Positions 1,949 through 46,535 are shown, counted from the stretch's first letter. The stretch: DNA of 64,000 nt from Antedon mediterranea (GCF_964355755.1 NC_092671.1:1674001-1738000); one strand, 5' to 3'. Program-made: numbers and translations. The notes: a model not told the origin generated them from the letters alone.

Positions 1949-2262
1949 AATGTGAACGCACGCGTCTACTCGTTGTAATATGGATTCGCGTATACTTTAA
2001 GTAATGTGGACGCGCGCGTATACTCTATGTAATGTGGGCGCGCGTGTATACTCTATGTAATGTGGGCACGCGTGTATACTTTAAGTAATATTTCGACACG
2101 CGGGTATACTTCATGCAATGTGGACGCGCGCGTCTACTTAGTGTAATGTGAACGCGCATCTACTTTATGTAATGTGGACGCGCGCGTCTACTTTAAGTAA
2201 TGTGGATGCGCGCGTCTACTTAATGTAATGTGGAAAAGCGCGTTTACTTTATGTAATTTAAA
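1949..2262. repeat. ~28-bp CpG-rich minisatellite, ~11 copies
   Basis: Consensus AATGTGGACGCGCGCGTMTACTTTATGT repeated head-to-tail. Confidence 0.93.
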
Positions 2263-3616
2263 CACGCCGGCGGTATAGTAATACTGTACCATGTTGTTTG
2301 GTGCACGGGGTGACGAATAATCATCACGAGCCCATCATACATGGAAGTAACTTAGGACTAAATTTTAAAATGATGTTAATTATGTGTAAATAGTTTCAAC
2401 CTGTTTTTATTCATGTAAGTATAATACATTGAATAAGTATCTAATTGAGCGTGTAAATGCACCAGGTCCTTTGACCGGGCCTTTGACGATCATGTTCTGT
2501 CTGTATGAAATAGCAAACAGAACTGAAGCAGCAGTAATTTATAGTTTCGTCGACTGTGCTTTGTGTGTAGCGCCAAGAAAATAACCCCCCATTACGGTAC
2601 CGTACAGAGTTCCGTAACACGACTGGCTATTCCTAAACAAATTCTCACCAAGCAATAAACAAAAAGAACAGTTCGTAATAAGGAAAATAAACTAAGTCGT
2701 CTGTAATGTGTGTGGCTTACCGACAGTCAAAGGAGTCCCGACAAGTGTTCTGATTCATCATGAGCCTGCTTCGATGGCTACAATTCCGTCATTTTGTTTT
2801 GGGGTGTTTTAGGCTGAAGTTTGTGAACCGTCATGCACACGGATGCTGCTGCAACTCATTGGCCGACCTACCCCCTACCACCCCCCCCCCCCCCCCACTT
2901 CTGAATTGGTACCATTTCGACAGCAAATCATTAACTTAATACGAAAAACTAACCCACACCTCGACAGTGAAGCCAAAATATTCACAAACGCCTTTATCTC
3001 CTACACATTTCATATTATTTATGTTGTAATAAAACCAATATCATATTAATAACGATAAGTTTTATTATCTTTCTTATTACCAATAATAAAAGGCTAGACT
3101 AAACTCCTAGTTACCGTCGTAAAAAAACCCATAAAATATACCAAGAAAACTATCCGTTTATAGGACGGTTACAGTAACATTATACCGTAAAACTAGTCTT
3201 TGAAATGAGTTACAATGTTGTCTAATGTTAAATATAGGATATAGGCATGATAATATAAGAATATATATTTTATACCGATACTAAATGTTGTGATTGGTGA
3301 TAGATAGAAAGAATTTTTTTTTAATCAATTAGTTTTTGGGATATCTACACATTTTGACCACATTGTTATTTTAAAATCGATATTTCATAATTGAAATGAT
3401 ATTTATTGAAATGTTTCGCTGTTTTATTTTGTTAAAAATGCGATATTTTGTGTGATTTATGAGCTTCGAAGAGATTGTTCATGGTCGAAAACACAGCTTA
3501 AAAGTGCAGTTTAAAAAGTCAAAGGGTTAACACGTTATATTTAATTTGATATTAAATGTTAAAGTTTGTCCAAACCTCAGTCGAGTGCTTATTTAGTGTG
3601 CCAACAAAGGGTCACA

Positions 3617-3680: not shown

Positions 3681-4250
3681 CTTGAAAGAACAACAAAAGA
3701 CTGCGTCGTCGACGACACAATGGACTCTTCCAAATTGTGAATTTTGCGGGGGGATCATTGTTCACAAAACGTGTCATCAACTTGTACTTTATTTTTTAAA
3801 TGTATGATAAACAACGGATACTGCACATTTTCTGTTGCTGTCAATATTGCTGATTTCAATGATCAACATCCGTTTCTTTTGAATAGGGTGATTGCTACAC
3901 TCTGTCCATGTAGGTATTTAACGCACTGCCCCATGCTGTTACGTTACTATTGGGAGAATCCAGTATTCACACATCCATCAAGCATAAGTAACGTCGTAGT
4001 GTTAATGTTGCAATCATTTTGACCAATCACAGGTAATTGCCCCTCGCAGCAAATATCAAGCCAAGTTCTACAAGAAATCAACATATTCCAGTGGGAGTCG
4101 ACGACGACGTGAGATTGATGCAAACCGATTTATTTTGCGTTTAGTTTTCAACAAGTGCGTTTGCCAAACTATTTTGTTTGCCGTTCATTTACATACGCTC
4201 ATTTGAATTGCCTGTGTACAATTTTTCTATTTTTATCGACGTTTTTACAG

Positions 4251-4755
4251 ATGCCCAAAATAATGGAGTTATGTTTGCTTATTATTTTTGTTTTATCGTT
4301 TTTGGATGGACAATCGGTTGAGGCCCGTAGGTCACAAGAAGTTTACCAAAAATGTCAGCCAGTTACTATCCCGATGTGCGAGAACTTACCGTACAATATG
4401 ACGACATTCCCTAATTTTCTTAAACACCAGAGCCAAGAGGAGGCAGGCGCAGAAATTGCCCAATTTTTACCGCTCGTAAATGTTGAATGTTCCGAAGATT
4501 TGCGATTTTTTCTTTGTATGATGTACGCACCACCCTGTATCCAAAACTTTGTCATCCCCCCGTGTTTGAATCTTTGCGAACAAGCAAGGTATGGATGTGA
4601 AGTTCTTATGAATAGATTTGGGTTCAGTTGGCCAGAGCAACTATCATGCGACAAGTTCAAAGAAGCCGGCCCTGGTGTCCTTTGCATTGATCGTAATAGA
4701 ACTGATGATAATGTTTCTAAAAGACCTGCTCCAGTATTGACTACAATTGCTCCAG
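4251..4755 (+). CDS. Gene A coding exon 1: signal peptide + Frizzled-type CRD of a secreted sFRP-like (CRD+NTR) protein
   Basis: ATG 4251 lies directly after an acceptor-like ttttacag (alternative ATG 4263). Hydrophobic leader MELCLLIIFVLSFLDG, then a 10-Cys CRD (CQPVTIPMC...FLCMMYAPPC...GFSWPEQLSC...VLCIDRNRT). Ends at CAG|gtaag, phase 1 (505 nt). Confidence 0.93.
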
Positions 4756-5628
4756 GTAAGAATGTTTTTAGTTCATTATTATGAATACGATTAATAACAC
4801 GATTGACATACTTTTGTAATGTACACAGTGACGGGTGGGGTCATTTCACAAAGCTTTGTTTTACATTTCTATGCCTCTATCATTAAGTGTTACTAAATTT
4901 ACCAAGGGGGGTTAATTAGTACTAAATATAATGGTTTTATTTTCTATAATTTTCACAGCATTATAAGATATGTTAAAAATATCCTTTTCTATATTTTGTT
5001 TAACTGGTTTCATGTTTTGATATAAATTTTGTGGTTCCGTACACCACGTATAGTTCTGATCGAAGTTGATCGTCCTCAGGAGTTATTCTTTGTAGCCACT
5101 TTGCCATTCTTTTCACCAACAATAGTTAGTTATATTATTAAGTTTTTCATTTCCATAAGATATACAGTAAGCCAGCTAACTAAATCGTGCAATTTCTCGA
5201 TTTACCAAATTCCATCAATGTTCTTCAAGACTGTGATCACGTTTCATTCGCGTTTACAAAAGTTAATATAAAAGTGTTTCTTTATCAAATAAGTTTAGTC
5301 AGCAGAGCAGCTCACTTTATGTCAATCAGTTTCTTTGAAGACAGATCCAACTCACGTTCCATCTTGGTATGATGTCTTCACGTTCAAGGATGCACTTAAT
5401 CTGCATCTGTAGCAAGACATAATTATCTTTCAATATCATTTCCGATTTTGGCAATCTCCTAAGATGTACATGTAATAGGCCTAGTTGTTTTGTTGTAGAT
5501 GTAATCCCCGCCATTATCTATACGATTAAATGTCGTTTACTGGGGTAGGCTAACTTAATTTGTCTTCGGGTGAACTTTTAGATAAGTGCCGTATACTTCA
5601 GAATACATTTTCTATATTTTTTATACAG

Positions 5629-5697
5629 ATATTTTATGTGAACAAGAAATTAACGAGTCAACCAGATCAAAGAATTGCTCCCTGATCAAACCATTAG
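5629..5697 (+). CDS. Gene A candidate linker/cassette exon (DILCEQEINESTRSKNCSLIKPL)
   Basis: Acceptor ttttttatacag| and donor TAG|gtatga. 69 nt, phase 1-1, open in the frame set by the flanking exons. No counterpart in gene C. Confidence 0.55.
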
Positions 5698-6234
5698 GTA
5701 TGATAACGCATACAATTACGGTTTAATGGGAATAACATTTAAATATTAGGACCCCGTGTACGTTTATTGTTGTACCATTATATATAATTATATATATAAC
5801 ATTCTATAGGAATTTGTGTTGATGATTAACCTAACACATTATTAATAAAATACTACTGTGAAAAAAAAACCTTTAATATTTTTCTCTCTCTTTAAAATAA
5901 GTGTGTGGGGAATAATTCACAAATTAGTGGCCCAATTCAACAGTTCAGCTGAAGTTTGGTTCCCATATCGTACATGAAAATGAGGTCATATTAACATTCT
6001 TCATTAATGTATAATTAAATGATCCAGTAAGTTGTTGGTAAATTGAAACATTCTTCCGTTCTACCTGTACCGGTTTGTCTCAAAGGGACGTGCTGCTGAA
6101 TATCGGCACCTGTTGCCCAAGACAAGGTTTTAAAGGTTCACGCGTGTAAGGATAATTTCACTTGACAGCAATGGCAGTACTGTGATTTTTTAGTTTAGTG
6201 AAAAATACAATTTGAATACAGTACATTTATTGTC

Positions 6235-6480
6235 ATAATGCCTATACTACAGGAAACTATACAGACTCATATGCCTACTAATACTAGACTTCGGCCTACC
6301 ACCCTTGTTGTCATATGCCTATACTAATACCACAGACTAGGACCCATGTTTTCATCATATCGGCCTACTATACTATATACTTATGCCTACCCATGTTTTA
6401 TAGGACTCTAGTCTAATACTATACAAACTTAGGCCTTCCCATGTTGTAATGGGCCTACTAATACTAGACTATAGACTTAT
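6235..6480. repeat. Degenerate short tandem repeats
   Basis: Recurrent GCCTAC/TATACTAATACTAGACT/CCCATGTT motifs. Confidence 0.55.
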
Positions 6481-6712
6481 GTTCATGTAGACCAAGTTTT
6501 TTAATTGAAATTTGAATTTAATCCATCGCAAATTCTCTTAATTCGTCCTGTCATCAGATATCTCCTCGTCACATGATCATTAATCATATTATATACTGTA
6601 CGAGGAATGACCATCGTGAGTTATCATTGTATCATGGTTGTCATTTTGTATTATTGGAACAAGCCTTTCCTATCAAATATTCTCTAATAATTCCTTTGCA
6701 AGTTTCTTCCAT

Positions 6713-6808
6713 CGTCTTGGCCATTTCTCGTCTTGGTCATTTCTCGTCTTGGTCATTTCCCGTCTTGGCCATTTCTCGTCTTGGTCAGTTCTCGTCTTGG
6801 TCATTTCT
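6713..6808. repeat. 16-bp tandem repeat x6
   Basis: CGTCTTGGYCATTTCT, six consecutive units. Confidence 0.95.
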
Positions 6809-7971
6809 TTAGCCGAATCATATCAGTCCACTACAGGAAGTGTCCAATCATCTAAAGAATGTCCATCATTCTTAACTCCTTTGAGTCATCCCGCCATCTA
6901 AACCTGGCTTATTATTCTAGTGTAAAAACATTGATTGATTATAAAATTACATGGGTACACGGTGCAATTACATCTGTTAGAAACCGCCTTGTCGTACTCA
7001 CGAGATTTAGATGACGTTTTTAAAGGTTACTTACCACAAACTGGGACTTGTCCAAGTTCACTGGTAATAACCGCTTCAAGATTAATGTTGGAAAAATAAT
7101 CACTTTTTTTAATGTTGTCGTGCAGCACATGCCGCGTATCACATTTGGTTCGTTCCAACAATCAACACTTATTACTTTGAACAGGTGACTAATCGACCAG
7201 TTGTTATCCTCTAGTCAACATTTGCTAATGTTCTTCAATAATATTAAATCATATTTAATGTACTTGAAGGTCTAAACTTTAAACTGTATATGTAGGCCTA
7301 AATGGTATCCAAACTGACAAGAAACCGCTTGTTTTGGTACTATTGTACATTGGAATTGTGAATGGATAAAGATTTTAATCAATGTACGGTACCCATCCAT
7401 CCATTAATTCATCCATCCGTCTACCCATATCTAGTAACATCCATTCCATCTATCCGTCCATTTCACCACCACCACCCCCCCCCCCCCCCCGTCTGTCTGT
7501 TTGTCTGTCGATCTATCTATGACGTCAAATGAAAATCAGTTGTGTCATTGTATACCGTAGACTTAAATATCAGATTAAAAACTACCGTATCTAATTCCAA
7601 ATAAGTACTGTACTTATTTCTCCGTATTAATTCGTTTTACGTTAGCCCGTACCCATTAGGTGCCTTTCATTTTACTGTTTATGGATTAAGGTTTTCCTTT
7701 CATGGGTGTAATAGTATTATTTTGACCGGTACGTTTTGTATTAGAACTAAGTTGGGAATTACTGTTAGCCCTTGTGTTGTATTAAGATGACTTTTCAATT
7801 CCATTGACCATTTTGCCTTCCATGTATGAAATAAAGGAAATACCACTGTGATGATGTAAATCACAAACACTTATAAAACGTTAATTCATATAATAACTCA
7901 TTTTCCGTAACACCTCGGATTAAAAGACCAATTCTAAAAGACCAATTTTTAAAATAACTATTAGGCCTATT

Positions 7972-8303
7972 GTGCACCTAGAACACCTCCAGAAAGATTT
8001 CGAACGCATTGAGTCGGATGCCTCTCATCCTCTCCACAAAGTGATCATAGACCAACTTAATCCAAGTGGTAGATTGAGGCTCCTCAGTGTGAAAAACAAA
8101 TCGATATGCCAAATCCTTTATTCCCTCCGGTATCATACAACAGGAAGTCACGAAGATAATTTTATCTTGTATTTTTTTAGATGTTTTTATATGAATGGTT
8201 TTATGCTATATTTGTTTTTATTGTGTTTTCTTTGTTATTATCACGAGCAATGAATTTCCTTTTTGAGGATCAATAAAAGTTATCTTATCTTATCTTATCT
8301 TAT
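7972..8303 (+). mobile_element. 5'-truncated LINE 3' end (Rex1/Babar- or L2-like), frameshifted, in gene A intron
   Basis: IESDASHPLH...PSGRLR followed in another frame by RYAKSFIPSGI, typical of the C-terminus of CR1-group RT ORFs. Tail is GGATCAATAAAAG(TTATC)n. Confidence 0.75.
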
Positions 8304-10300
8304 ATCATAATACCAAAAACAAGTAATATCAATTTATCATTCATCATAATTGATCGACATCAAGATATGAGAACAAAATTAACAGAAATGTAGTAGAAAT
8401 GGGAGTTTAGGTTTATTTTTTATTAAACCTTCAATACAAAGTTATTTTTTTTTCATTTTTAAAACTAATCTGTAGTACCGATAGGATATCTCTATTATTG
8501 GCGAGTAATGTGTGTGAATTTGATAAGATCTTTTTGGCTGATTGAAATCCGTCAGCAGCATTCTGTAAGCGACAGACCAGTAAATATAAACACCTAGACA
8601 TTTAGATATTATTGAATCAAATGAACCAAATCTAAAGCTGTCTGATTTCAATCGAAATAGAAATAATAATAAATTGCTTTAAAAATTACGTATAATTAGC
8701 CTAATCTGATAATAGGATCAAGGTTAGAAAATAGAATGTCAGGAGGAGATATTTGCAAACATTTATGTTTAACTAACTTAGGCATGTTTGTTTGCTTGTC
8801 TAACCTATTCAGTTGCATTCATGTCTCTTCTCAGTATATAGGATTCTTTGACTAAGAATGGCGTTAAAATCCAGTTCAATTTGATAACATTTCCTATACG
8901 AAACGCAAACAATCTTGTAAACTAAACTCATTGGAGATGCACTTAAGTATCCATTGATACGGTACTTTTAATAGTACCTATAAACTTCAAAGGATACCGC
9001 TCCAAGGTGATACATTAAGCCGTCAGCCTTTAGGGGAAGGACCTATTTGACCAATTGTTTCAGGTGATAACATCATCTGGTGTAGTTACCTTACCGTCCC
9101 CAAAATTTTTCGCCAATTAATTTGAAATAACGCATCAGCGAAAATACTCTGATGCGACAGAATCAGATTGTTCTAAACTTTATCACCTTTTTTTCAAAAA
9201 CGTTAATTTCGGTTCAGTTGTTACTATTTGTTGTGGTCTGGGATTTGGCAGGTTTTTGGTAATAAAAGTAATTAATAGTACAGTGATCTAATCGGTATAG
9301 TAATCCGATGTCGTGTCCGAGTCCGGCGTGTTGTTTGATTGTTTTTTTTTTGTTATTTATCAGTTCCAAAAGAGTTGTAATTTTATTTTGGTAAAAGTCG
9401 CCACTCGTCTGTCCGACAGTGGATTTTGGCTGAACAAGTCCAGTGTTAGCTTAAGTATAATAGTTTTACTCACTGAGCAAATATTTCGACAATACGTCAT
9501 AGGTTTCTGTAATACGTGTCATAGAAACGTAACACAATGTTATGACCGTTTGAGCAGAATACTTAGTTTTATGCACATCTCAAATTGATCGTATAATATT
9601 CATTACAACATAATAAAACTATTACTAGCAAATAAAATTGACGTTTATAGATTTTAAACGGTCTTGTCAACTCGCGTAACTGTATCCTTTTAGTAAGCTG
9701 ATGCTACCACTCTTACTACCTGTATTTTCCTTTCGTATTCTATCCCACCCAGTGTGGTTAAAATCACCCCCTATAGCTCTGAGGTGAGAACAATTTGAGA
9801 CTGTGTTAGTATACCAAAGTTGGAAAGGGTGAAAAAAGGATCGTCTGTCATTCAAAATAGACAAACACAAACTAACACATCTTGAAGTTTAAAAGACCAC
9901 CGGCAGTGTTCATATTTCCATCGAATTACTGAAAATTGTAAAGAAAAAATAAATACACCTACTTTTTCAACCATATATAAACATTGCGTTTAATAGCAAG
10001 CCTAATATCATTATTATCATTATCATTCTGTTTTAGAATGATTACATTTTCTGTTCTTTAGTTAAACTTGTTTACTGCTGTGTCCCTTTTCCACTTATAT
10101 TTCTTTTCTTGCATTATATTAATAACATTTTCATTATTGGCTGTATTTTTATTTTGTTACTCTCTAGGCCCTATTTTGCGGAATTTGTGGAATTAAAGTT
10201 TATTATTATTATTATTCATTATCCTACGTACGTGTCTTTAAATTTAAGTTTGAGTTGATATTTATTCTTTACTTATTTTTTTCTTTTCTTTAACTTTCAG

Positions 10301-10387
10301 TTCCAGTTGACGATGTCACTTATTGCTTCGAATCTAGCGCTATTGTTTACGAAGATATTCTTTCTGAATTCTGCAAAGCACACTTTG
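10301..10387 (+). CDS. Gene A 87-nt exon: start of NTR domain (VPVDDVTYCFESSAIVYEDILSEFCKAHF)
   Basis: Long polypyrimidine tract ending ttcag|, donor TTG|gtaagt, phase 1-1. Same length as, and clearly similar to, exon 16789-16875 of gene C. Missed by the ORF track. Confidence 0.9.
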
Positions 10388-10466
10388 GTAAGTATTTATT
10401 TTACACTACATTAATTTAGATTTTATCAAACCATATCGCATAATTTTAAAATTCATTGGTACACAT

Positions 10467-10593
10467 AAAGCTAAAGCAACGCAAGAACATAAGCGCGCGC
10501 AATTTGACCAATCACGACGTATGGATCATCTAAACTGTCGCTTGTGATTGGTTAGCTTACCATGCGTTGCGCTTACGTGAGAACCAAGCTTAA
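10467..10593. mobile_element. Palindromic MITE family 1 copy
   Basis: GCAACGCA...TGACCAATCAC...GTGATTGGTTA...TGCGTTGC...GAACCAAGCTT. Related copies at ~17140, ~19520, ~30125 and ~51715. Confidence 0.7.
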
Positions 10594-11964
10594 GCCGCTC
10601 AATGCATCGTATCAATATTCGTGAGTCACTTTTCGTCAGACCGGATCTTAGATTTTGGGAAACGTATAAGGCTAAAATCGATTGTTAAAAGAAAGGGTTT
10701 CATTTTCTTCCTGTCTTAGGCATATAGAATAAAAAGATACGGTATGTGTGTCTCCCTGTTACCATGATAGATGTACAAAAGATAACTTCAGTCACAGCAG
10801 CTGCGGAAATCTCCCAGGCTTTGTTTTATATTCCATCTTTTTACCTGCTATCATTAATACCCGTACATATCGTTTTTCTAGGCTTATAAACTCCAATCAA
10901 TCAAGGGTGAAAATACCGGTACTGGTTAAACACCTGGCCTATACCCATGTGCCCTCAACTAACTTGGGGCTCAATAACCTTAACTGGTTTATGAACCTGG
11001 TTTAAGGACTTGCTTGAATTCCCTCCAGTGCAGCAGAACATAATTATAAAGATGATGCATTTCCGTGTTTTCTACATTTATGAACGATTATGTCAGATGG
11101 CTAGGTTGCTTTTCATGTCAAAGCAAAATTAAATTATTTAGAATCAAAACTCAGGCTTAAAAACAGCACTGAACTCAGTGTTGGCACGAAACGCAGAAAA
11201 CTGCTACAGTAGTCCTCTTTTTAACTATTCAGATAAACTTACATTAATTTATCAAATTAAGCAATATGATCACATACGGTACAACAAAATTAATAAATTT
11301 ACTGTATAGCGCCCTCATGCGTTAAAAAACTTTATAGAAGGACACGTTTTAATTTGAACCAATTACGGACCATCGTTTTTATGATTTTTTTTTTATTTTA
11401 TGACTAATACATTCTGATGTTTTAGCACGTTTTAAATGTCGATTACTATCGGTGATCTCATAAAATAATTTCTAATAAAACTGTTTTAAAATTACATCAC
11501 TATCAATTTTCTTCGACCCACTTTACGGTATTACAAGCATTACCGTAACTCAAGGCCCATAAAAATCATTCCCTAATATATTAAATTCCAATGGGTTCAA
11601 ATAGAGAAGCAAAAGGGGGATAGAGTTGATATTCTTTGTCTTATTAAATTGTATTGACAAATGAAAAACAAACGGCAGATTCAGGAAGTTGGCTGTTGGC
11701 GAGATCACATTTAATTGTTTACTATCTCGATTAAATGCCAGGGTACCTCTAAATCTTCTAACAGGGGACTTGATTAGCGCGTTTTTACTCCTTTCTTCTT
11801 GTGAACTTAAAATGCGGGTTAGCGTAATGGAATGAACGGAGAAAGTATGGCACGCTTTTTATGCCTTACCAATATCCTTTTCTAGATTTGACACTTTTTT
11901 AAATTGGTATTTTCCGCATTTGTGAAGTCATTTATTGATGATTTCTTTTCTTGTTTACTTTCAG

Positions 11965-12266
11965 TAATGAAGATCCGTCTAGAATCTATTTCAAGCACAG
12001 TTCAAGAAACATCGTACCAAGCTAACGATCGAAAACGTGAAATATATAAACGCGATGGTCTGAAGAAACGCGATTTGAAGGCGATGTTGTTCCACATGCG
12101 CAACAGCGCAGCACCTGAATGTTGCAACGTTATGAAGCCAGGCGAAGAGTTTCTTGTTATGGGTTACAAAGACAATAAAAGGCTGATCATCAGCTCTGTA
12201 TTCGCCTGGACACGATCCAGAGACTTCAGACAGACCATTAGAAAATTTGTAGATTTAGACTGCTGA
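11965..12266 (+). CDS. Gene A terminal exon: NTR (netrin C-terminal/C345C) domain, sFRP1/2/5-like
   Basis: Acceptor ctttcag|, phase 1. VMKIRL...IYKRDGLKKRDLK...ECC...FLVMGYK...LIISSVFAW...LDC-stop. Spliced product is 297 aa (320 aa with the 69-nt exon). AATAAA motifs follow at ~12373, ~12404 and ~12673. Confidence 0.9.
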
Positions 12267-14482
12267 TCGTGATTATTAAAAAAAAGTAGACGGTTGTTGA
12301 GAACCGGCGGCGAACCATTGGTTTATTTATGAAACGCATAACATGCACAAAAACGCGTCATACAATCTCGATAATAAATTGTGACGCGTTATCTATTACG
12401 AAAAATAAAAATGTATATTATCAAGGGTGTTAGTATCAGTATTAATTATTAAAACGTGGGTAGAAATATTTTTTGACTATTTACGATGTTTCGATCACCA
12501 TTAAATATAATGCACATCTATATTAATATTATAAGAGATAGCGTGTGTATGTTCGTTATACATTTGGAATGGTCCTACTAGATTTAAAACCGCCTGGGTG
12601 GTTATCTTTCCTCGAAATGAAAGAGTCTACAATCTTACTCGCTCGAGTTGATATTTATCTTGATTTAAATTGAATAAAAAGCAAGGCTAACATTAATTCA
12701 ATTAATACATTGTATGATAATATCTTGAATCTTTTTGTGGGAATTTTATGATAGAAATGATAACGTTATTAACTTTTCAAGAGCGAAAGAGGGCGCTGTG
12801 TATATTGTGAATTGGAAATATACTGTTTTCAGAGGGAGACATAAAACACGTACCTATTAGGCCTAATACAAAATGGTTTGACAATTAAAATTTGTCCTAT
12901 TTTACTGTTATCTTCCATATAAATAGCCGTGATGTACAGAATTAAGTAGTTTAATTAACATTTTATTGAATATTTAACACTATATTCGATGTTTTATATT
13001 AAATTTATTTTTTTAGAAATTATAACACAATATGAAAGATATATTGTAAAGCATAAACCCCAGTAAAAATTGCTTGAGACAGATTCCGAATGGCGCCCTC
13101 AACATCTTTCGTATATTTTTTTCCCCGTCATTTTTATATTATTAGCCTACTCATCATTATCGTAGACTTTACTGCAAATAAACAATATATTTCGTTAAAA
13201 AGATTGTTTTAAAGAAAAGTTTGTTAATTTCTTTCCCAATGATTTGAAATATAAAGAAAAAATAACGTGATGTTTTCCGTGACTTATATCCGGGTTGTAT
13301 ATAAACTACTGGCCAAATAGGTAACATTATTTCTTAAAATTTGTACAAATTCGTATATTTTAAAGTTGTTGTTCATTAATTTGAATTAAACATAGGTTTC
13401 GTACACGTATCATACGTAATGCGTTGTTTTTATATCATTACGTTTTCCCCTCGTTAATCGTTTACATGTGTGTAATTGTCCGCGATACCATAAAATGATT
13501 AACTTTGGAAAATTTCTACTTAGCACAATGAATAGCTTTACCCCTGGTGAAGTGACTTTCGTTTTTTGTAAACACGTATGCCTCATATGCAATGTTCAGT
13601 TAAGAAACATAGGATTTGAGTAAAAATATAATCTTACTCCTCTCTCGAAATTAGACGGTGACGTAACTTAGTAAGTATGTAGGCTTAGAAACTTTAGGAC
13701 TTATCCTCCCTCGTAGATACACCTAGAGACCTATAAGGCTCACAAACCTATTAGTAGTCCTGTAGTATACTACTACTAGGCCAAGCAAGAGTAGTGTGTG
13801 TGTATGAAACGTATTCAGGAAGTTGTCTGTATTTTCAAAGAGCAAATCAACCGTAAATATATACTTTTTATTGAAAGTGAACATCAAAAGAATGCCGTCT
13901 GGTGGCGGTATATCAAAAGACACCGAATTATTTAATACCTGCTGCCCTAGCTTTCTAGTCCGTTGAATGCGTACAATACAAACGGCTGTAAAAGACATTT
14001 CACGCGGTAAAGATGAGCTGTGAATTGACAGTAACTAATTTAGTACCATAAGTGTTCAAATGCACCCTTTTTATCATCAAAACAAGAAAAAAAATGTCCA
14101 TATTAAAGAAAAATTAATGTTAAAATAAATATTATTAAAACGAGGGAAGAGCGATTCAGGGGAAAAAACATAGCGCCATCAACGTTTTGAAACTTACAGT
14201 AGAGTCGAGCCGAAATTATAAGGCGTGACGTATTGACACTACATTTATGTACAGTAATACTCTTTTCAACTATGGTAATTGTGTACCATATAGAGATATC
14301 ATTCTCATCTCTGCGTGTATGTATCTGTATTATGAATCTGAACGTTTTCCACGATAATACAATATTATAAAAAAACAACTACAGGAAAAATAGCAGGTTA
14401 ATTGCACCCGCATCAACCTGTACCAATGCTCTGTATCTTTAATAGCTTCCTAGTTCCGTCAAAATAGATGGAAGAAACTCAG

Positions 14483-14490
14483 TATATAAA
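14483..14490 (+). promoter_or_regulatory. Candidate TATA box of gene B
   Basis: TATATAAA(G) about 97 nt upstream of ATG 14580, with an Inr-like TCAC ~28 nt downstream. Confidence 0.55.
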
Positions 14491-14579
14491 GTAGGAATAA
14501 ATACTTTATTTCACATTTCCAAAGCGTCAGTTTTGTAACAAGAGTGTACGGTCTGTTGAGATACAGTAGGCCATTCAAA

Positions 14580-15047
14580 ATGACGATTCCTTCAAATGGA
14601 AAGATGATAATGTTTGCTTTTATCATTTGGATGTTCGCCGATACGACGATGGCACAGACTTCATTATATGGAAGTCATACTCAAAACCCTAATGCCACAC
14701 AATGTGAAAACATCACAGTTTCCATCTGTCAGAGCCAGCTATACAACACTACGATTCTTCCAAATTTGTTAAATCACACAAGTCAGAATGAAGCAGCTTT
14801 GGTGTTGACTACCTTCTATCCTCTAATATTGGTTGAATGTTCGCCAGATCTTCAGGATTTCCTGTGTGCGATGTATCTACCTCCCTGCACGGACACTTGC
14901 TATGTTACACCACCATGCAAGTCACTTTGTCAAAGTTCGAAAAATGGTTGTCAAGATATTATGGATAATTTCGGTTTTACTTGGCCGGATGAACTTGACT
15001 GCAACCGCTTTCCCGAGCAAACCCAGAGTGTATGTATCGATGGCTAA
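14580..15047 (+). CDS. Gene B: intronless secreted Frizzled CRD-only protein (~155 aa)
   Basis: ATG 14580 (or 14604), signal peptide MIMFAFIIWMFADTTMA, complete 10-Cys CRD plus one extra Cys. TAA follows three residues after C10. TATA box upstream and AATAAA at 15185-15190. Confidence 0.88.
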   Translation: MTIPSNGKMIMFAFIIWMFADTTMAQTSLYGSHTQNPNATQCENITVSICQSQLYNTTILPNLLNHTSQNEAALVLTTFYPLILVECSPDLQDFLCAMYLPPCTDTCYVTPPCKSLCQSSKNGCQDIMDNFGFTWPDELDCNRFPEQTQSVCIDG

Positions 15048-16005
15048 GACGGAGTTAGGCCTTATTACCACAACCACCACTAACATAATCTACCGACAGT
15101 ATACATCATCATTAAGGTGACAACGAAGTCCATCGATGACCGCAACCTGTTAGTGGCGGTTTCGTCGCTGTTGGTTGTGAACTGAATAAAACAAACATTC
15201 ATTTTGTTTCAACGCATACTATATTGTGTAATTTAAAATCGAAGTAATGTTGAAAGTATACTGTGTATTCAATTTGTAATTAAACGATCTATACTCAATA
15301 TTTTGAATAGTCATGTATTTTTAGTGCGTTGCTCGTTCCAGTAAGCCTAACTTAACACTTAGCTTATTCCTGGTATGGTGGTACCGAAGGTAAGTTAGCT
15401 TACATGCCATCAATATCATCGAAATCTTGTGGAAGAGCGTTTATACAAGTACTCCTTTTAATGGTATATTCGATCTGCGTCAGACTCAATTTAGAGTCTT
15501 GTTTGGAGACAGTCTTTTATTTGCGTTCCACATTTATTTATCTATTTTTATAATGAATACTGGCCAGTTTAGATTATAATGCTATCGGATATCAGTACAT
15601 CTTTCATCCTCGGTTCAGAGATTAGAAACATAATTTTAACTAAACTAAACAAAGTAAACTAAATCAGTCCGGATAGCAACATAATTATCTCCCCATATGT
15701 TTATAACTTACAGAAGTAAAAACATGGGATCTATAAATCTAATTTATAGGTCCATGGTACATGATAACACCAGATGACATCGTCTTATGACGATTGTTGT
15801 AGACCGGATATGTTACTGTCTTAATTCTTGTTGTAGGAAGTAGGCCTAGTAATCGATTCCTTATCCTGCATCAAAAGTTGACCTGAGACGACGGAAATGC
15901 ATGGAACAATCAAGTAATGAAACTATTGTATCAACCCGTCACTTCCATCGTGTGTACAGTGTGGAGTGGTTGCTTTGTAGACAAGTTTACAGTTTTTATT
16001 TCATC

Positions 16006-16594
16006 ATGGGTTCCTCATATCTCTATTCCTTCATTCTGATACTATTCCATATACTGACGTTGGTAGACGGGAGCGTGGAAGTTGATCCTACTGAAGAATC
16101 AGACGTCATGACTACCATTGAGCCTCGTTTTGGCAAATACAAACCACCAAACTACCACCAGATACCGGATTGGTACGTTAAAGATAAATGTGAGCCAGTA
16201 ACTGTTCCCTTGTGTAAAGACAGGTTGTATAACTTTACGATTGTACCCAACCTCTTGGATCATGACTCCCAAGATGACGCCGGTTTAGAAGCCCATCAAT
16301 TCTACCCACTTGTTAAAGTCGGATGTTCGGAATATTTACAAGATTTTCTGTGTTCGATGTACGCTCCTCCTTGTACTGTGCTTGAGTACGCTCTTCCTCC
16401 GTGTAAGTCGTTGTGTAAGCGCGCCAGAGCTGACTGCGAAGGTCTTATGAACAGATACGGATTCAAATGGCCCACCAAACTTGACTGTAAATACTTCCCA
16501 AAGGATGGTCTATGCATGGGTGTGGAGAACCTGAAGAGCACCACCACCGAGCCGCTTATGGATCAAACAACGCAGGCTACTGAACCAACACCAA
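16006..16594 (+). CDS. Gene C coding exon 1: signal peptide, N-terminal extension, Fz1/2/7-type CRD, Thr/Pro-rich linker
   Basis: ATG in good context (atcATGG), leader [25 protein letters not shown] contains [14 protein letters not shown] and [11 protein letters not shown]. Donor CAA|gtaagt, phase 1 (589 nt). Confidence 0.93.
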
Positions 16595-16788
16595 GTAAGT
16601 CTATATGGGCACATCACATGAAGTTTGACAGTTTATATTAAATAGGCGTTTTATTACCAACAGCAGCGTACGTACGGTACGTCAAATATTTTTGACCAAT
16701 CACAAACGTCGGACGCGTTGTGCTGTCATCTTCAAAATAATCCGTTGTCTATTTACTTATTATAACTTATTATGTATATGTTTTACAG

Positions 16789-16875
16789 TGTCACGTGATA
16801 ACTCAACATTCTGTTATGAATCTCTTGATGGAAGAAAAGACGATCTCAAGCAGCAATTCTGTGGAGCAGATTTTG
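16789..16875 (+). CDS. Gene C 87-nt exon: start of NTR (MSRDNSTFCYESLDGRKDDLKQQFCGADF)
   Basis: Acceptor ttttacag|, donor TTG|gtaagt, phase 1-1. Paralogous to 10301-10387. Confidence 0.9.
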
Positions 16876-16940
16876 GTAAGTTTCATTTCCGGTTTCCGGC
16901 AATAGTAAAAGTAGTCCACTAAATCCAAACTAACCAGCCC

Positions 16941-17107
16941 CTATTTACCCTTTATATACTATTTACCCTTTATATACTATTTACCCTTTATATAGGCCTA
17001 CTATTTCCCCTATACTATTTACCCTTTATATACTATTTACCCTTTATATACTATTTACCCTTTATATACTATTTACCCTTTATATACTATTTACCCTTTA
17101 TATACTG
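16941..17107. repeat. 18-bp tandem repeat, ~9 copies
   Basis: CTATTTACCCTTTATATA units in gene C intron 2. Confidence 0.95.
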
Positions 17108-17139
17108 TACTATTTATTGTCATATGTTTATTGTTGTTA

Positions 17140-17328
17140 CTGTCGCCTGTGATTGGTTAACTCTCTTGCGTTTCGCTTACCTCCAGTAAGAACCTAGCAT
17201 ACGGGCGTACGTGCAACGGAAGTCAGTTGACAAATCACAGTTCGGATAATCAATTGTCTGCGATTGGTCACATTACTTGTGTTGCGCAGGTACGTCATCG
17301 CTTGCGTCCTGGGATTGAACCAACATTA
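17140..17328. mobile_element. MITE family 1: one half copy plus one near-complete copy
   Basis: CTGTCGCCTGTGATTGGTTAAC...TTGCG...GAACC, then GTTGACAAATCAC...GATTGGTCA...GTTGCGC...GAACCAA. Confidence 0.65.
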
Positions 17329-17363
17329 AATGTAGTAATATCTCCTAACTTGTTTTAATATAG

Positions 17364-17659
17364 TTATGAAGGTTAGACTAGAGGAGGTAGCCAATACACT
17401 GGACGGTACAACGTACTTGATAAGTGGAAGACGACGCACGCTTTATAAAACGCATGGTTTGATCAAACGCGATTTGAAGACATTGCGACTCAATGCAAAG
17501 GACGTAGTAGCTGCAGAATGTTGCCATGTTGTGAAGCCGGGTGAGGATTATCTTATACTGGGCTATAAGAATGGAAAGAAACTTGTCATTAAAACTATTT
17601 ACGCATGGTCAAAGGGAATTAGAAATCTGGTAAAGAATTTCGATGGGGTACAATGCTAA
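17364..17659 (+). CDS. Gene C terminal exon: NTR domain, sFRP1/2/5-like
   Basis: Acceptor atatag|, phase 1. VMKVRL...LYKTHGLIKRDLK...ECC...YLILGYK...LVIKTIYAW...VQC-stop. Spliced product is 323 aa. AATAAA at 17851. Confidence 0.9.
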
Positions 17660-19517
17660 ACAGCAGAGTGCATATTCTCACTTCAATTAAAGATAACTTT
17701 AATAGGACTACTTTTATTTTAAATGTTGTCGAAATATTTCTAAACCTAAATATGTTGTCATTTAACCTTTTAATTGTGAACATGAATAAGTGTTTTCATT
17801 TTAAACAGTTATGTAAATGTTTTAGTATTATGTATCCATTAATTTTGTATAATAAATCATCACAAATGTTGAATACTTTCGTTAAAATCAATTCTAGCTA
17901 GCAAACCGTTATGCGCGTGCGTCCCTTTTTTCATGTTCATGATGCCTTTGTAATAAAACAATGGAATGGAATTTTAAAGACGAACGTATTTATACGAAAG
18001 AAAAAACACTTGTCCGGCCGGCCGTCAACAAATATGCCTGTTTATTGATCTTCAAAATGATATACTTTCCTAGTAAGAATAAAAACTGATTAATATTAAA
18101 CTTTAGCCTGGAGATGTTGTGTTAATCATCAGTGTACAATGCATTGGAACCCGAGTAGGCGTACACGGAGACAGGTGGATTATTCGCGACAAATATTCGC
18201 TCTTTTGTTGCGCGCCATTTGTGAACACGGCAGACAACATGTTTTCAGCCTCGTTCAAAGAACAGTTCTTTCCTGTTGTGTAACGACCTGAAAGTAAATC
18301 AAATTACCAAATGACGTTTCATGCATAAGTATAGATGATTAAGAACAATCAAATGTTCCGCTGTGTTGCAGTTCTATATTGGTTTGTAAATGTTTTGTTA
18401 TATTTTTCTGTTCAGCTAATTATAGGCTACGATATGACTTTGAAATGTAGGTCTAGGTATATTAATTCGACTTATAAGAAACCCCACTATGTTAGGCCTG
18501 AGACACACAGTAATTTCAGGATGTATCGTAGGTATGTAGTCCTAATGATAATTGTAGTATACTTCTCAGTATTCCTGTTGTATCCCTCATAAAATGGGAA
18601 TTATCAGAATACCCGTCCGTCCCCCATCTTGTCGCTCGCTTACAAATTAATTTTCCCCGTACAGTTACAATGTAGGAAGTCCTCTATAGTGTGGTTCTTA
18701 TGACTAAAATGGCTAAATTAATACTTTTCAATTTCTGTATTATAATGACGGAACAATTTGGTCCATTAGGTCTTTTCTATTTATTGTTCTTGTCCAAAAC
18801 AATTCTGTATTTTCTCGTATTATCGGCTTTCTACAAATCCAGGTTTAAACCTATTGCTCTCCGACAACAATGTTGCTACAGTATTCATAAATAAAATGAA
18901 GTTCCTAAACGGTTAGACAGTGTTAGAACTCAAACTATTTCAAAGGAATAAGTAAGGCATAATATTTTTTATAGAATAAAAGCATCAAAGAATGACCGAT
19001 AATTTCAAAGACGCCGCATTATTATGGTACATGCAGTAGCTTTCTAGTCTGCTGAGCGCGTACAAACCGGGGTTTGTAGAGACTGTTGCAATTCACGCAA
19101 TTCAGTTCCGGTTTACGAACTTTTATGAATAGTATTAGTTCGCTCCACCCCCGGAGAATTCAGTTTTTTCACTGCACAGTGAGGTGTTTTGTTTGTACCC
19201 TATCGATAGTAGTGTACTTCTATTGTCGATAATTGTGTTTTAATTCCCGGCATAATGCGTTAAATTTGTCAGATGAAATGACAATAGATAATTTGATAGA
19301 TTCGACGGTTTAATAATTATGTTTTTGAAAATGCCGTCGTTTCGTTTGATCTTAATAATTGGTATCACCATCGATGTCTCTAATAATCGATACATGTTGC
19401 ATCTTGTTTTTACTTATGACCATTCATTTAAGAGAAACTATATTTTTGCAGAATATTGAAGTACATCAATAAAGAGGAAAAACACGAGATTGTCCTGTCT
19501 TTACTGTTTTATTATTT

Positions 19518-19666
19518 TAAGTTTTTTCGCAACGAAAGGACGTAAGCGCGCAACGCAATCGAGTTGACTAATCAAACGCGATTGATTATTTAAACTGTCG
19601 CGTTGATTGATCAACTCACGTGCGTTGCACAAGTTACTACGTCGTTAAAGTTCGAACCAAGATTTA
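19518..19666. mobile_element. MITE family 1 copy
   Basis: GCAACGCAATCGAGTTGACTAATCAA...TTGATTGATCAACTC...TGCGTTGC...GAACCAAG inverted structure. Confidence 0.7.
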
Positions 19667-21113
19667 ATCCATTTATTTATTTTTGTTATTAAACCTTGTT
19701 TAAAGAGGGTAACCCTAAAACAGCATATGCTGACAATCAATGCAACAATAATATTTTACTTTATTTTTTTCTGCGTTATTAAGAAATTAGCAGAAAAAAC
19801 CGTTTGCCAATTAATTTTTAGTGAATCTTTAAGAGATATTTACGCAATAGGCAATTGTCAAGTTGATAGGAATTGCAATCAAGGCGATATACTGATTGGG
19901 CTTCCGTGGTTAACTTCAGGACTCATAGCTGTATGAAATCAAAAGAATTTATACAAAATTAACATACTTAATTAAAGTTATGTATAAAGTGGTTAAATAA
20001 AGTTATAAATGACAATAAGAGGATAACAAATTTTGACATAGCGCCCTCTATTTTAAAAGTTCTTTAATCACAGTGCTGCTGTTGTATCAGTACTGTCCGA
20101 ACAAAACATATTACCTACTGGTTCTGCTATGTAGATTCAAGTTATATATCAAATATATCATATTAAAAAGTTAAAGATAAAATATTTTGTTTCGAATTAG
20201 TTTACAAACAAACATTCCAATACAATCTTTGCATACAAACAAAAATGGAAATGGAAAGAATGTCACCTATAAACACTTATTTGACCTTTTAATCATGTTA
20301 AAGTATGTATTTTTAAATGAAAGTTGTTTTTTAAAAACCCTGTTTTTAGCAAGAAATATTGTTTTAAATTGTCTAAATTAAATGTATGTTACGCTGTATT
20401 CCAATACGAATGTTTTATTCTAGTTGATTTCATGCAAACCAACCAGCTTGCCATAAAAAGTAAACAATTCCGAGTACTGGTACATTCTAAAAAAAAAAAT
20501 TATGATTTATTAGTTAATTTCAATCTTATTGATTGTTTACATTTTTACTGGCATACTTATGTCACCGTTTCACGTTTCAATAAAACGTCTGAAATGCGCC
20601 TATAAATTTGCAAAGTAAACATTTTACACGTCACGTGGTAGATTATATGGCTACCGATTGGTCAATTTACGATTAAAGCTTAATCAGTAGTTTCTCAGAC
20701 CTTTTATATTTAAAACAACAAACAAGATTAATTTCAAATAATTTTGGCAAAAAAATAATTGATATATAATAATATATATAATAATTATAAGATGTAATGT
20801 TTTATTATTTTAAATATGACTTAGTTTAGTCGTTTTTGCTATAAATTTGCAGACACCCCTGTGGAGATTTAGAAACTGCTGTGACGTAACTCAGTTGCAG
20901 TCTATTCACTGTGTCAACTGAGCAAGTGTTTGGCGACAAAGCGTGAACTTAGGCTTGCTGATGGTTGTGGCTTATATTACGAGGAGTATATTTTGATCAC
21001 AAATTTAGTCAAGAATTAATGTTTATGCTCTAAAGTTAACAAAATACAATTACTGGATACATTTTGAAGCTCGTGTGGATTGCCTTGTGAAGGTAAATAA
21101 ACCAACAACAACC

Positions 21114-22838
21114 ATGTTCTGCAGAGAAGATCATGTGAAAAACCGAAGGTGGGTGAAACCGCTCTCTGTTCTTGTTTTGTCGCTGTTGTTGCACTGTACA
21201 ACGGCGCAGGTACATGGTCCATACGGGAATAATGGCGGAGGTGATACTTATTCGAAGCCTAGGTGCGAAGCAATCACAATTCCACTGTGTCATCAGCTTC
21301 CATATAACACCACAATTTCACCAAATTTGTTGAATCAAAACCAAGAAGATGCTGGTTTAGAAGTACATCAATTTTATCCGCTCGTAAAAGTCGAATGTTC
21401 TGTGGATTTAAAATACTTTTTGTGTTCGATGTATGCACCTCCATGTACAATGGTGGATTTTGCGATACCTCCATGTAAATCGTTATGTCAAAGTGCGAGG
21501 AATGGATGCGAAGCTTTGATGAACAGATTTGGTTTCCAATGGCCTGATAAACTTGACTGTGATTTGTTTCCCGAACAACGACCTGGAATTTTATGTGTTG
21601 ACCGAAATCGAACAACGCACCCAATTGACAATGATGGTAATGGTGGAAAGACTATAACGACAAAGTCTCCAGAAAATGTTGTGACATCAACTCCCGCAAT
21701 TCACAAAGAAGATATTCCATTTACATGTCCAAAAGAATTCACAGTTCCTGAGAAAGATGAAGAATTTTTGGGATCAAAAAATTGTGGAGCCCCGTGTCCA
21801 ATGTTTTTTACAGACCCTGCTCAACAAAAGTTTGCCAGGCTTTGGATTGGTATTTGGGCGTTTATTTGTGCCGGATCGTCTTTATTTACTTTCATGACAT
21901 TTGTGATAGACACTAAAAGGTTTAGGTATCCTGAACGTCCAATTATTTTTCTTTCTGGGTGTTACTTTATGATTGCTGTTGTATACATTGTTGGATTTTT
22001 TATGGACGATGAAATAGCTTGTAATCAGCCTTCATCTGAGGACGTACATCGAGAGGCAACTCTGACGCAAGGTGCCAAGAAAGAGATGTGTACGATTCTA
22101 TTTATGGTTTTGTACTACTTCACGATGGCATCTTCTATTTGGTGGGTGTTGTTGAGTCTCACATGGTTCTTGGCTGCCGGTTTGAAATGGGGTCATGAGG
22201 CTATCGAGAGAAATTCCCAATATTTTCACGTTGCTGCTTGGTCTATTCCTGCTGTAAAGACAATTGTAATTCTTACGATGGGTGAGGTCGACGGTGACCC
22301 TCTCAGCGGTGTTTGTTTCACTGGTGGTACGAACATTGCCGCACTACGAGGATTTGTACTTGCCCCTCTTATCATCTATCTAATCATAGGAACATTCTTT
22401 TTAATAACCGGATTTATCGCTTTGTGTCGTATAAGGACTTTTATGAAGCACGAAAATACGAAAACAGACAAGTTGGAAAAATTAATGTTTCGTATTGGAA
22501 TTTTCACTGTACTATACACTGTTCCAGCCACTGTTGTAGTAGCCTGCTATATTTATGAGCAAAACTTTAGGGCTCAGTGGGAGTTACGTTGGCTCTCGGA
22601 CAATTGTTTAAAATACAGTGTGGTCTGTCCGCATCTAGATGGGTTATTACCCGAAGCCTCTCAGGGTCAAAGGCCGAACTTCACTGTTTTTATGGTTAAA
22701 TATTTAATGTTAGTGGTTGTTGGCATTACCAGTGGTTTTTGGATTTGGTCTGGGAAGACCCTTCAATCGTGGATAAACTTTTATTATAAATTGTGTTCGA
22801 GGAGAAGATCCGTTCCGAAGAAACCTTCAGAAGTTTAA
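21114..22838 (+). CDS. fzd1/2/7: Frizzled-1/2/7-class Wnt receptor, intronless, ~574 aa
   Basis: First in-frame ATG (accATG) at 21114, signal peptide, CRD with [14 protein letters not shown] (1/2/7-type, not the 5/8-type HQFWPLVEI). Also [30 protein letters not shown], seven TM segments, Dishevelled-binding KTLQSW and a C-terminal class I PDZ-binding SEV. Confidence 0.97.
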
Positions 22839-46329: not shown

Positions 46330-46535
46330 CTCATCTGTGTAAATTGACCTTAACAGCAATCCCGTAGCAAGGGGGTTTGTAGAGTTCAAAAGACCCCCCC
46401 TCATCTGTGTAAATTGGCCTTAACAGCAATCCCGTAGCAAGGGGTTCATAGAGTTCAAAAGACCCCCCTCATCTGTGTAAATTGACCTTAACAGCAATCC
46501 CGTAGCAAGGGGGTTCGTAGAGTTCAAAAGACCCA
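46330..46535. repeat. ~69-70-bp tandem repeat x3
   Basis: CTCATCTGTGTAAATTGACCTTAACAGCAATCCCGTAGCAAGGGGGTT...AGAGTTCAAAAGACCC at 46330, 46400 and 46468. Confidence 0.95.

What the first reader, a model, noticed from the sequence alone, without database searches (positions are those of the whole stretch)
4251..22838. Receptor-plus-decoy cluster: three secreted Frizzled-CRD genes in tandem immediately upstream of fzd1/2/7
Seen: four co-oriented CRD genes in ~19 kb with three architectures (CRD+NTR twice, CRD-only, CRD+7TM). All four have PPC at Cys5 (MYAPPC/MYLPPC) where canonical Fz1/2/7 has APVC. B, C and the receptor share PPCKSLC and LDC. Gene A shares the tail PG(V/I)LC(I/V)DRNRT with the receptor. 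The CRD of gene C is about two-thirds identical to the receptor CRD (hand count ~69/104). Known: the CRD is the Wnt-binding module, and soluble CRDs can sequester or carry Wnt. Inference: local duplication of the receptor's ligand-binding region produced a lineage-specific set of Wnt modulators matched to the neighbouring receptor's ligands and possibly co-regulated with it.
Basis: partly seen in the sequence, partly recalled or inferred. Interest (0 to 1): 0.9.

Follow-up and report, generated by a model that had tools for sequence, protein, structure and literature searches.

The report
Feather star chimeric Wnt-decoy gene cluster
Just upstream of a Wnt receptor gene, a feather star carries three genes for predicted secreted proteins, two of which likely arose by joining a copy of that receptor's Wnt-catching domain to the tail of a separate, well-known Wnt inhibitor, and which would likely act as soluble Wnt traps or carriers.

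Summary
The window matches the crinoid Antedon mediterranea. Four co-oriented genes lie in 18.6 kb: A and C (signal peptide, CRD, NTR; three exons), B (CRD only) and an intronless fz1/2/7. All four predicted introns are spliced out in public contigs, and A is under purifying selection. RefSeq fuses all four genes into one 1460-aa 'uncharacterized protein'.

Their CRDs are Fz1/2/7-type (58-64% to the receptor, 32-38% to Antedon's own sFRP1/5). Their NTR is sFRP1/2/5-type, and canonical sFRP1/5 survives on another sequence record. That is a CRD+NTR pairing outside the two origins described in the literature I could search.

A shared non-coding element suggests [A,B] is a tandem copy of [C,receptor]. 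Anneissia has similar genes; there the NTR gene before the receptor carries a CRD 93% identical to that receptor, suggesting a later re-copy.

Ligand matching, co-regulation and Wnt binding are untested.

Verdict: new variant of a known kind, interest 0.5.

The parts
4251..4755 (+). Gene A exon 1: predicted signal peptide, Fz1/2/7-type CRD (10 Cys), linker
   Evidence: donor used in run X9
10301..10387 (+). Gene A exon 2 (87 nt): start of the NTR domain
   Evidence: GT-AG joints on both sides in X9; length fits X5 record 1
11965..12266 (+). Gene A exon 3: rest of the sFRP1/2/5-type NTR, stop
13833..13976 (+). Non-coding element, copy 1 (downstream of A, upstream of B)
   Evidence: local alignment to copy 2 scores 84 against a maximum of 42 in 200 shuffles
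14580..15047 (+). Gene B: predicted signal peptide plus CRD only, one exon; likely a truncated copy of the receptor's 5' end
   Evidence: covered by contigs of X5 and X9
15040..15117 (+). Thr-rich linker-like reading in another frame across B's stop, resembling the linker of Anneissia P0136; suggests B was shortened by a frameshift (inferred)
16006..16594 (+). Gene C exon 1: predicted signal peptide, Fz1/2/7-type CRD, linker
   Evidence: donor used in X5 and X9
16789..16875 (+). Gene C exon 2 (87 nt): start of the NTR domain
   Evidence: GT-AG joints in X5 and X9
17364..17659 (+). Gene C exon 3: rest of the sFRP1/2/5-type NTR, stop
18938..19065 (+). Non-coding element, copy 2 (downstream of C, upstream of the receptor)
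   Evidence: the adjoining 19026-19286 is 97% alike in run X10
21114..22838 (+). fz1/2/7 receptor, intronless: signal peptide, CRD, 7TM region, KTxxxW, C-terminal S-E-V
   Evidence: contigs 20928 onward in X5 and X9

Best explanation
Genes A and C encode predicted secreted two-domain proteins that join a Fz1/2/7-type Wnt-binding domain to an sFRP1/2/5-type NTR tail, B encodes a predicted secreted CRD alone, and all three likely bind lipidated Wnts outside the cell and so dampen or spread the signal that would reach Fz1/2/7.

Likely history (inferred). (1) In a crinoid ancestor a copy of sFRP1/5, or of its two NTR exons, came to lie upstream of intronless fz1/2/7, and its first exon was replaced by the receptor's 5' end (signal peptide, CRD, linker). 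(2) The unit [chimera, spacer, receptor 5' end] was duplicated in tandem before Antedon and Anneissia split, giving [A,B][C,receptor]. (3) In the Anneissia line the first exon of the chimera next to the receptor was copied again from the receptor, by gene conversion or unequal crossing-over.

Shown: gene structures, splicing of A and C, the class of each domain, purifying selection on A, survival of a separate canonical sFRP1/5. Inferred: secretion, Wnt binding, direction of effect, steps 1-3. My odds: chimeric origin 0.9; Wnt binding 0.75; step 2 0.6; step 3 0.7.
For: CRD class: best solved relatives are FZD2/7/1 for all three. Bits for C: 171 vs FZD8 130, sFRP3 89, Sizzled 65. A: 152 vs FZD5 136, sFRP3 107, Sizzled 65. 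B: 128 vs FZD8 119, sFRP3 90, Sizzled 67. Identity 58-64% to the receptor vs 32-38% to Antedon sFRP1/5; AU tests reject an sFRP1/5 origin for the A and C CRDs.
NTR class: a profile of the four crinoid NTRs hit 43 of 1.84 billion representatives; the best full-length non-cluster hit is Antedon's own 'sFRP5-like' XP_071956452 on a 30.6-Mb record, whereas the cluster is on a 40.9-Mb record. Eight of 10 hits looked up carry sFRP1/2/5 names in their clusters, 2 have no informative name, none is named sFRP3/4. All 10 of 42 non-cluster hits with a CRD show the sFRP1/2/5-type CRD. The Atlas ranks sFRP1/sFRP5 clusters nearest. A and C have the five-Cys NTR of Antedon sFRP1/5 and the same single N-terminal Cys seen in the Holothuria and Diadema proteins, where the hemichordate and vertebrate ones have six Cys. 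The last-exon boundary falls where unspliced sFRP1/2/5 gene calls leave the consensus (10 of 11 examined; inferred intron homology).
Function: lipid-groove positions named for FZD2/FZD7 in PMC6333880 are kept 9/9 in A, 8/9 in C, 7/9 in B, 4/9 in Antedon sFRP1/5. The model of the Anneissia A orthologue (pLDDT 83) matches FZD7 CRD at about 1.1 A and aligns to Sizzled over both domains. NTRs are basic (pI 8.6-9.5). A versus run X9: 17 synonymous to 5 replacement codons, pN/pS 0.08, p 4e-8.
Step 2: element 13833-13976 resembles 18938-19065; B is intronless like the receptor; NTRs pair A with Anneissia A and C with Anneissia C (14:1:0 sites; 95/90).
Step 3: Anneissia C CRD is 103/111 identical to its own receptor but 66/108 to Antedon C; it shares the receptor's signal peptide, a one-residue deletion present in all three crinoid receptors and absent from Antedon A, B, C, and 5 residues private to the Anneissia receptor against 1 and 2 for the alternatives.
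Against: No binding or activity data. A clade of all crinoid CRDs is weak (76/96; 86/89) and is unresolved once sFRP CRDs are added. No Fz5/8, Fz4, Fz9/10 or sFRP3/4 sequence was in any tree; those classes were ranked only by vertebrate PDB scores, where the margin for B is small (128 vs 119 bits). Nesting of the NTRs inside echinoderm sFRP1/5 is weak (70/46), and the AU test does not reject leaving them outside (p 0.058). AU tests do not reject Antedon C plus Anneissia C as one CRD clade (p 0.08; p 0.31), so step 3 rests on identity, the indel and a few private sites. Anneissia C is read out of a fused RefSeq model whose DNA, splicing and gene order I did not see. Antedon shows no recent copying (four-fold identity 19-35%, 28% expected at saturation). 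NTR sequence found no sFRP chain in the PDB.
Confidence: 0.7

Rival explanations
1. The chimera is older than crinoids: an ancient Fz1/2/7-CRD plus NTR subfamily lost, or not yet sampled, elsewhere.
For: A and C CRDs are as close to other echinoderm Fz1/2/7 as to the crinoid receptor; A, B and C float at the base of Fz1/2/7 in one of three trees; synonymous sites are saturated.
Against: No non-crinoid protein with this pairing appeared among the 120 listed of 191 hits, 3 hits or 43 hits. PPC is shared by 9 of 9 crinoid CRDs and 0 of 116 other receptors. Two trees group them with crinoid receptors. The first two searches need shared 5-residue words, so absence is weak.
Confidence: 0.12
2. The proteins are chimeras but their main job is not Wnt trapping: they pair with the receptor's own CRD, or inhibit Tolloid/BMP1-type proteases as Sizzled does (recalled, not read here).
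For: FZD CRDs dimerise through the lipid groove (PMC6333880, passages); the mechanism of sFRPs and the role of the NTR are described as still open (PMC7458405, passages). The fold match over both domains is Sizzled.
Against: The CRD is the receptor type with the groove intact, and is only distantly related to Sizzled (65-67 bits vs 128-171 for FZD2/7).
Confidence: 0.13
3. The locus makes one long fused protein with four CRDs, two NTRs and the 7TM region, as RefSeq model XP_071943703.1 has it.
For: RefSeq fuses all four genes in Antedon and two in Anneissia. One spliced contig runs from A through B.
Against: The fused joins are GC-AG, GT-AG, GC-AG and, for C to receptor, TA-AG with no canonical fit; each skips a native stop; the linkers are translated 5' flanks with internal signal peptides and differ between the two species. 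None of these joins is among the 12 joints listed for X9 and X10 or the 15 of 27 shown; the contigs read through the native stops.
Confidence: 0.03
4. A and C are ordinary, fast-evolving duplicates of sFRP1/2/5 that happen to lie beside the receptor.
For: Same domain order, likely the same last-intron position and an sFRP1/2/5-type NTR.
Against: CRDs are 58-64% identical to the receptor and 32-38% to Antedon sFRP1/5, which is 52-64% identical to other sFRP1/2/5 CRDs; AU p from 9e-5 to 3e-55.
Confidence: 0.02

Closest known systems
sFRP1/2/5 (Antedon XP_071956452 'sFRP5-like'; vertebrate SFRP1/2/5; Sizzled 5XGP/7EL5)
   Same: Signal peptide, CRD, NTR; NTR sequence class; five-Cys NTR as in Antedon sFRP1/5; likely the same last-intron position.
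   Different: The CRD is Fz1/2/7-type; the genes sit in tandem beside the receptor; the canonical gene persists on another record; the NTR has CC where the family has CxC.
Frizzled 1/2/7
   Same: CRD class, lipid-groove residues, echinoderm-type DRNRT tail in A; in Anneissia also the signal peptide.
   Different: A, B and C have no membrane region; A and C add an NTR and two introns.
Independent origins of sFRP1/2/5 and sFRP3/4 (Leclere and Rentzsch 2012, PMC3516229; passages and section 20 read)
   Same: CRD+NTR architecture assembled more than once by domain shuffling.
   Different: Those two events predate eumetazoans; this one looks crinoid-limited, re-uses the sFRP1/2/5 NTR and keeps the CRD donor gene next door.
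Lineage-specific secreted CRD proteins: Platynereis fzCRD-1 to -3 (PMC4669655), sea urchin sFRP-1 (PMC5778778), Ptychodera 'secreted frizzled-related like' ADZ61653
   Same: Secreted CRD derived from a Fz/sFRP gene; sea urchin sFRP-1 is a tested Wnt antagonist (passages read). Gene B is of this kind.
   Different: fzCRD-1 and sea urchin sFRP-1 are sFRP3/4-related and lack an NTR; no linkage to a donor receptor is mentioned in the passages read.

Membership tests
sFRP (by architecture) | Signal peptide, no membrane region | tested here: met
   N-terminal hydrophobic stretch and no later one in A, B, C by a hydropathy scan only; secretion itself untested
sFRP (by architecture) | Ten-Cys CRD followed by an NTR | tested here: met
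   Met for A and C; not met for B, which has no NTR
sFRP (by architecture) | Binds Wnt and modulates signalling | not testable with these tools
sFRP1/2/5 | CRD in the sFRP1/2/5 clade | tested here: not met
sFRP1/2/5 | NTR of the sFRP1/2/5 class | tested here: met
   exact place within the class is weakly supported (70/46)
sFRP1/2/5 | CxxC at the start of the NTR (PMC4669655) | tested here: not met
   One Cys only, as in the three named echinoderm sFRP1/5 examined, so uninformative against descent
sFRP3/4 | CRD close to sFRP3/4 | tested here: not met
   Mouse sFRP3 CRD scores 37-82 bits below FZD2/7; no sFRP3/4 was in the trees
sFRP3/4 | NTR of the sFRP3/4 class, with CxC at its start (PMC4669655) | tested here: not met
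   No CxC at the NTR start; none of 10 hits looked up is named sFRP3/4; 32 hits were not looked up; an sFRP3-like cluster is third by Atlas features for whole C
Fz1/2/7 (receptor gene) | CRD plus Frizzled 7TM region, KTxxxW, C-terminal S/T-X-V, best hits Fz1/2/7 | tested here: met
Fz1/2/7 (genes A, B, C) | CRD of the Fz1/2/7 class | tested here: met
   margin over Fz5/8 is 9 bits for B, 16 for A, 42 for C
Fz1/2/7 (genes A, B, C) | Membrane region | tested here: not met
Crinoid-specific duplicate of this receptor | CRDs form one clade with crinoid receptors | tested here: inconclusive
   76/96, 86/89, unresolved for A, B, C; Anneissia B and C nest among crinoid receptors at 91/93

The most novel reading that the evidence does not exclude
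The locus is a self-renewing decoy factory. Recombination between the receptor and the chimera just upstream keeps handing the receptor's current signal peptide and Wnt-binding domain, perhaps with its promoter, to a secreted NTR-bearing antagonist, so that decoy specificity and expression track the receptor; older copies move outward and diverge or lose their tail, and A and B may share one two-gene transcript.
Probability: 0.25. Interest if true: 0.75.

Novelty: new variant of a known kind. Interest (0 to 1): 0.5.

Why it matters
It would be a further independent assembly of the sFRP architecture, young enough that both donors can be named and one still sits next door. It gives a natural test of an open question: how much of an sFRP's Wnt preference and inhibitory power comes from the CRD and how much from the NTR, since A and C carry a receptor CRD on an sFRP1/5 tail. 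Crinoids are the sister group of other echinoderms and Antedon is a new developmental model, so extra Fz1/2/7-type modulators bear on anterior-posterior patterning. In practice, RefSeq hides four Antedon genes, fz1/2/7 among them, in one 'uncharacterized protein'; a search with the receptor at near lengths did not list it.

Tried and rejected
No whole genome is held for this window, so other loci and synteny were not read directly.
A candidate 69-nt exon at 5629-5697 in gene A was rejected: X9 joins exon 1 straight to 10301 and X5 record 1 leaves no room for it.
No listed run is on record as RNA; X5 and X9 are taken as RNA only because their contigs skip GT-AG introns. X6 and X8 behave as DNA. 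X10 gave only short, shallow pieces. Contig depth was not used to rank genes. X9 has no cover over 5288-7219, inside A's first intron, and thin cover between C and the receptor; neither is taken as a finding.
NTR sequence searches of the PDB gave nothing significant. A single-sequence fold was unusable (pLDDT 40). The metagenome scan gave two loci; L001 is a chance match in a frame with stops, L002 was not read.
AU tests that simply attach the whole sFRP clade to A, B or C were not significant (p 0.07-0.28) and only move one long branch. 'Six secreted CRDs as one clade' and 'three receptors alone' were not rejected either.
Recent conversion within Antedon was looked for and not found. Shared 5' flanks among the four genes, and shared A/C 3' UTRs, were not found. 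A weak CRD-profile score at about 19119-19266 (E 0.01) is left as probable chance.
No Rfam match and no further gene by codon scoring in the window. No complex was predicted: no Wnt sequence was available. Four look-ups of earlier findings returned nothing.
Rows left out of trees: most vertebrate receptors, all multi-CRD proteins, Tegillarca P0230 (CRD pattern not matched), and 24 of the 42 non-cluster NTR hits.
Full report
Identity of the window. The receptor's best hits are crinoid Fz1/2/7 (Anneissia 85%, Himerometra 88%), then other echinoderms and hemichordates at 59-65%. RefSeq protein XP_071943703.1 of Antedon mediterranea, 1460 aa, 'uncharacterized', contains A, B, C and the receptor at 100% identity. 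I therefore take the window to be Antedon mediterranea.

Observation. The four genes, their coordinates, the three architectures and the quoted motifs are all in the sequence. A and C have three exons each, with phase-1 GT-AG introns and an 87-nt middle exon; B and the receptor have no intron. Contigs of run X9 (organism B) skip all four introns at the predicted GT-AG ends. Contigs of X5 (organism A, another study) skip both introns of C, and a 4188-nt record has exactly the length of spliced A and then runs on unspliced through B. A contig across two genes does not prove one transcript. B has no intron, so its transcription is less secure; X9 holds it on a separate contig. Against X9, gene A shows 17 synonymous and 5 replacement codons among the listed differences (pN/pS 0.08); B and C could not be tested because the tables were cut.

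The fused RefSeq model is likely an artefact. Its joins skip native stops through GC-AG, GT-AG, GC-AG and a non-canonical TA-AG pair, run through translated 5' flanks, and are not among the joints listed (all 12; 15 of 27 shown).

The CRDs are Fz1/2/7-type. For A, B and C the best solved relatives are FZD2/7/1, then FZD5/8, with sFRP3 and Sizzled far lower. They are 58-64% identical to the receptor and 32-38% to Antedon sFRP1/5. AU tests reject placing the A or C CRDs with Antedon or echinoderm sFRP1/5 (p 9e-5 to 3e-55). Whether they come from the crinoid receptor specifically is less sure: the nine crinoid CRDs form one group at 76/96 (36 rows) and 86/89 (20 rows), but A, B and C are unresolved in a 34-row tree with sFRPs. 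PPC is in 9 of 9 crinoid CRDs and 0 of 116 other receptors, but also in six unrelated CRD proteins. By identity, C and A are no nearer to their neighbour (66%, 63%) than to Diadema Fz1/2/7 (67%, 64%), and four-fold sites are saturated (19-35%, 28% expected). The Antedon copies are old.

The NTRs are sFRP1/2/5-type. A profile of the four crinoid NTRs found 43 proteins in the representative library. After the Anneissia cluster protein and two short NTR-only gene calls, the best hit is Antedon 'sFRP5-like' XP_071956452, on a record of 30.6 Mb; the cluster is on one of 40.9 Mb. Eight of 10 hits looked up have sFRP1/2/5 names in their clusters; none is named sFRP3/4; 32 were not looked up. Ten of the 42 non-cluster hits have a CRD, all of sFRP1/2/5 type by inspection. 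The Atlas puts sFRP1 and sFRP5 clusters nearest by features and structure; for whole C its top rows are an unnamed CRD+NTR cluster, an sFRP5-like and an sFRP3-like cluster. In the NTR tree the four crinoid chimeras are one clade (100/100), weakly inside echinoderm sFRP1/5 (70/46). They share the loss of the first NTR cysteine with the three named echinoderm sFRP1/5. Unspliced gene calls of sFRP1/2/5 leave the consensus exactly where the last exons of A and C begin (10 of 11 examined), which I read as a shared intron. So A and C are chimeras of two genes that both still exist.

Anneissia. Three RefSeq models lie on a contig of the same length, 2,134,876 bases: P0123 (CRD+NTR; CRD 100/111 and NTR 98/129 identical to A), P0136 (CRD only) and P0001 (CRD+NTR fused to the receptor). 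NTRs pair A with P0123 and C with the front of P0001 (14:1:0 informative sites; 95/90). Yet the CRD at the front of P0001 is 103/111 identical to the Anneissia receptor and 66/108 to C. It has the receptor's signal peptide, the one-residue deletion found in all three crinoid receptors and P0136 but not in A, B, C or P0123, and five residues private to the Anneissia receptor (1 and 2 for the alternatives). I infer a second transfer from the receptor in that lineage. AU tests do not reject the no-transfer tree (p 0.08; 0.31), and I have seen neither the DNA nor the gene order; a separate younger duplicate would give the same picture.

Cluster layout. A 145-base non-coding stretch downstream of A (13833-13976) resembles one downstream of C (18938-19065): score 84, maximum 42 in 200 shuffles. 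With B intronless like the receptor, with a Thr-rich linker in another frame across its stop and with P0136 sharing the receptor's N-terminal RRWV, I infer that [A,B] is a tandem copy of [C, receptor 5' end].

How it likely works. A, B and C have an N-terminal hydrophobic stretch and no later one. The model of P0123 folds as an FZD7-like CRD (about 1.1 A) plus a second domain and aligns to Sizzled over its length. Lipid-groove positions are kept 9/9, 7/9 and 8/9 in A, B and C (positions from PMC6333880). sFRPs are held to bind Wnt through the CRD, with both domains needed for best inhibition (PMC3516229; PMC7458405). The basic NTR would hold A and C on heparan sulphate (recalled). The likeliest action is competition with Fz1/2/7 for Wnt; carrying or spreading Wnt is the same binding with the opposite outcome and cannot be told apart here.

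Literature. Ten searches of open-licence papers listed none whose title or abstract start describes this cluster or a Fz1/2/7-CRD plus sFRP1/2/5-NTR chimera; subscription papers are not covered. Read: PMC3516229 (passages, section 20), PMC4669655 (passages, section 27), and passages of PMC5778778, PMC12126913, PMC11336682, PMC11758999, PMC6333880, PMC7458405. No supplement was read; gene lists there could name these genes. Known: two ancient origins of the sFRP architecture, and many lineage-specific secreted CRD genes. New here: a further pairing, its place beside the donor, and signs of repeated copying.

Verdict. Observation confirmed; interpretation partly supported; new variant of a known kind; interest 0.5. 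The biochemistry is probably familiar, the origin and upkeep are not.

Noticed in passing
window 4251-22838: RefSeq XP_071943703.1 fuses all four Antedon genes, and XP_033113757.1 fuses two in Anneissia; both likely need splitting.
   Followed up: yes
window 3900-15140: One spliced X5 contig runs from gene A through 2.3 kb of downstream DNA and the whole B reading frame; possible long 3' UTR or two-gene transcript. In X9 the pieces are separate contigs.
   Followed up: partly
window 19026-19286: Non-coding stretch 97% alike in run X10 and covered in X9 and X5; overlaps the duplicated element; possible enhancer of the receptor.
   Followed up: partly
window 10476-10592, 17139-17296, 19529-19630: Copies of a high-copy dispersed repeat with a CCAATCACG-like core; many contigs pile on it in the runs laid.
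   Followed up: no
window 7924-8301: Insertion absent from runs X6 and X8, with very high contig depth and an A-rich/TTATC-repeat end; looks like the 3' end of a retroelement.
   Followed up: no
window 22839-64000: No further protein gene by ORF or codon scan and no Rfam match in 41 kb downstream of the receptor; may be a regulatory gene desert or large introns with small exons.
   Followed up: partly
proteins P0003, P0016, P0121-P0135: Several crustacean, fish and oyster proteins consist of Fz1/2/7-like CRDs without a listed membrane domain, two with seven CRDs; repeated secreted CRDs seem common.
   Followed up: no
window 1949-2270 and 46327-46537: Tandem arrays with 28-base and about 68-70-base units.
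   Followed up: no
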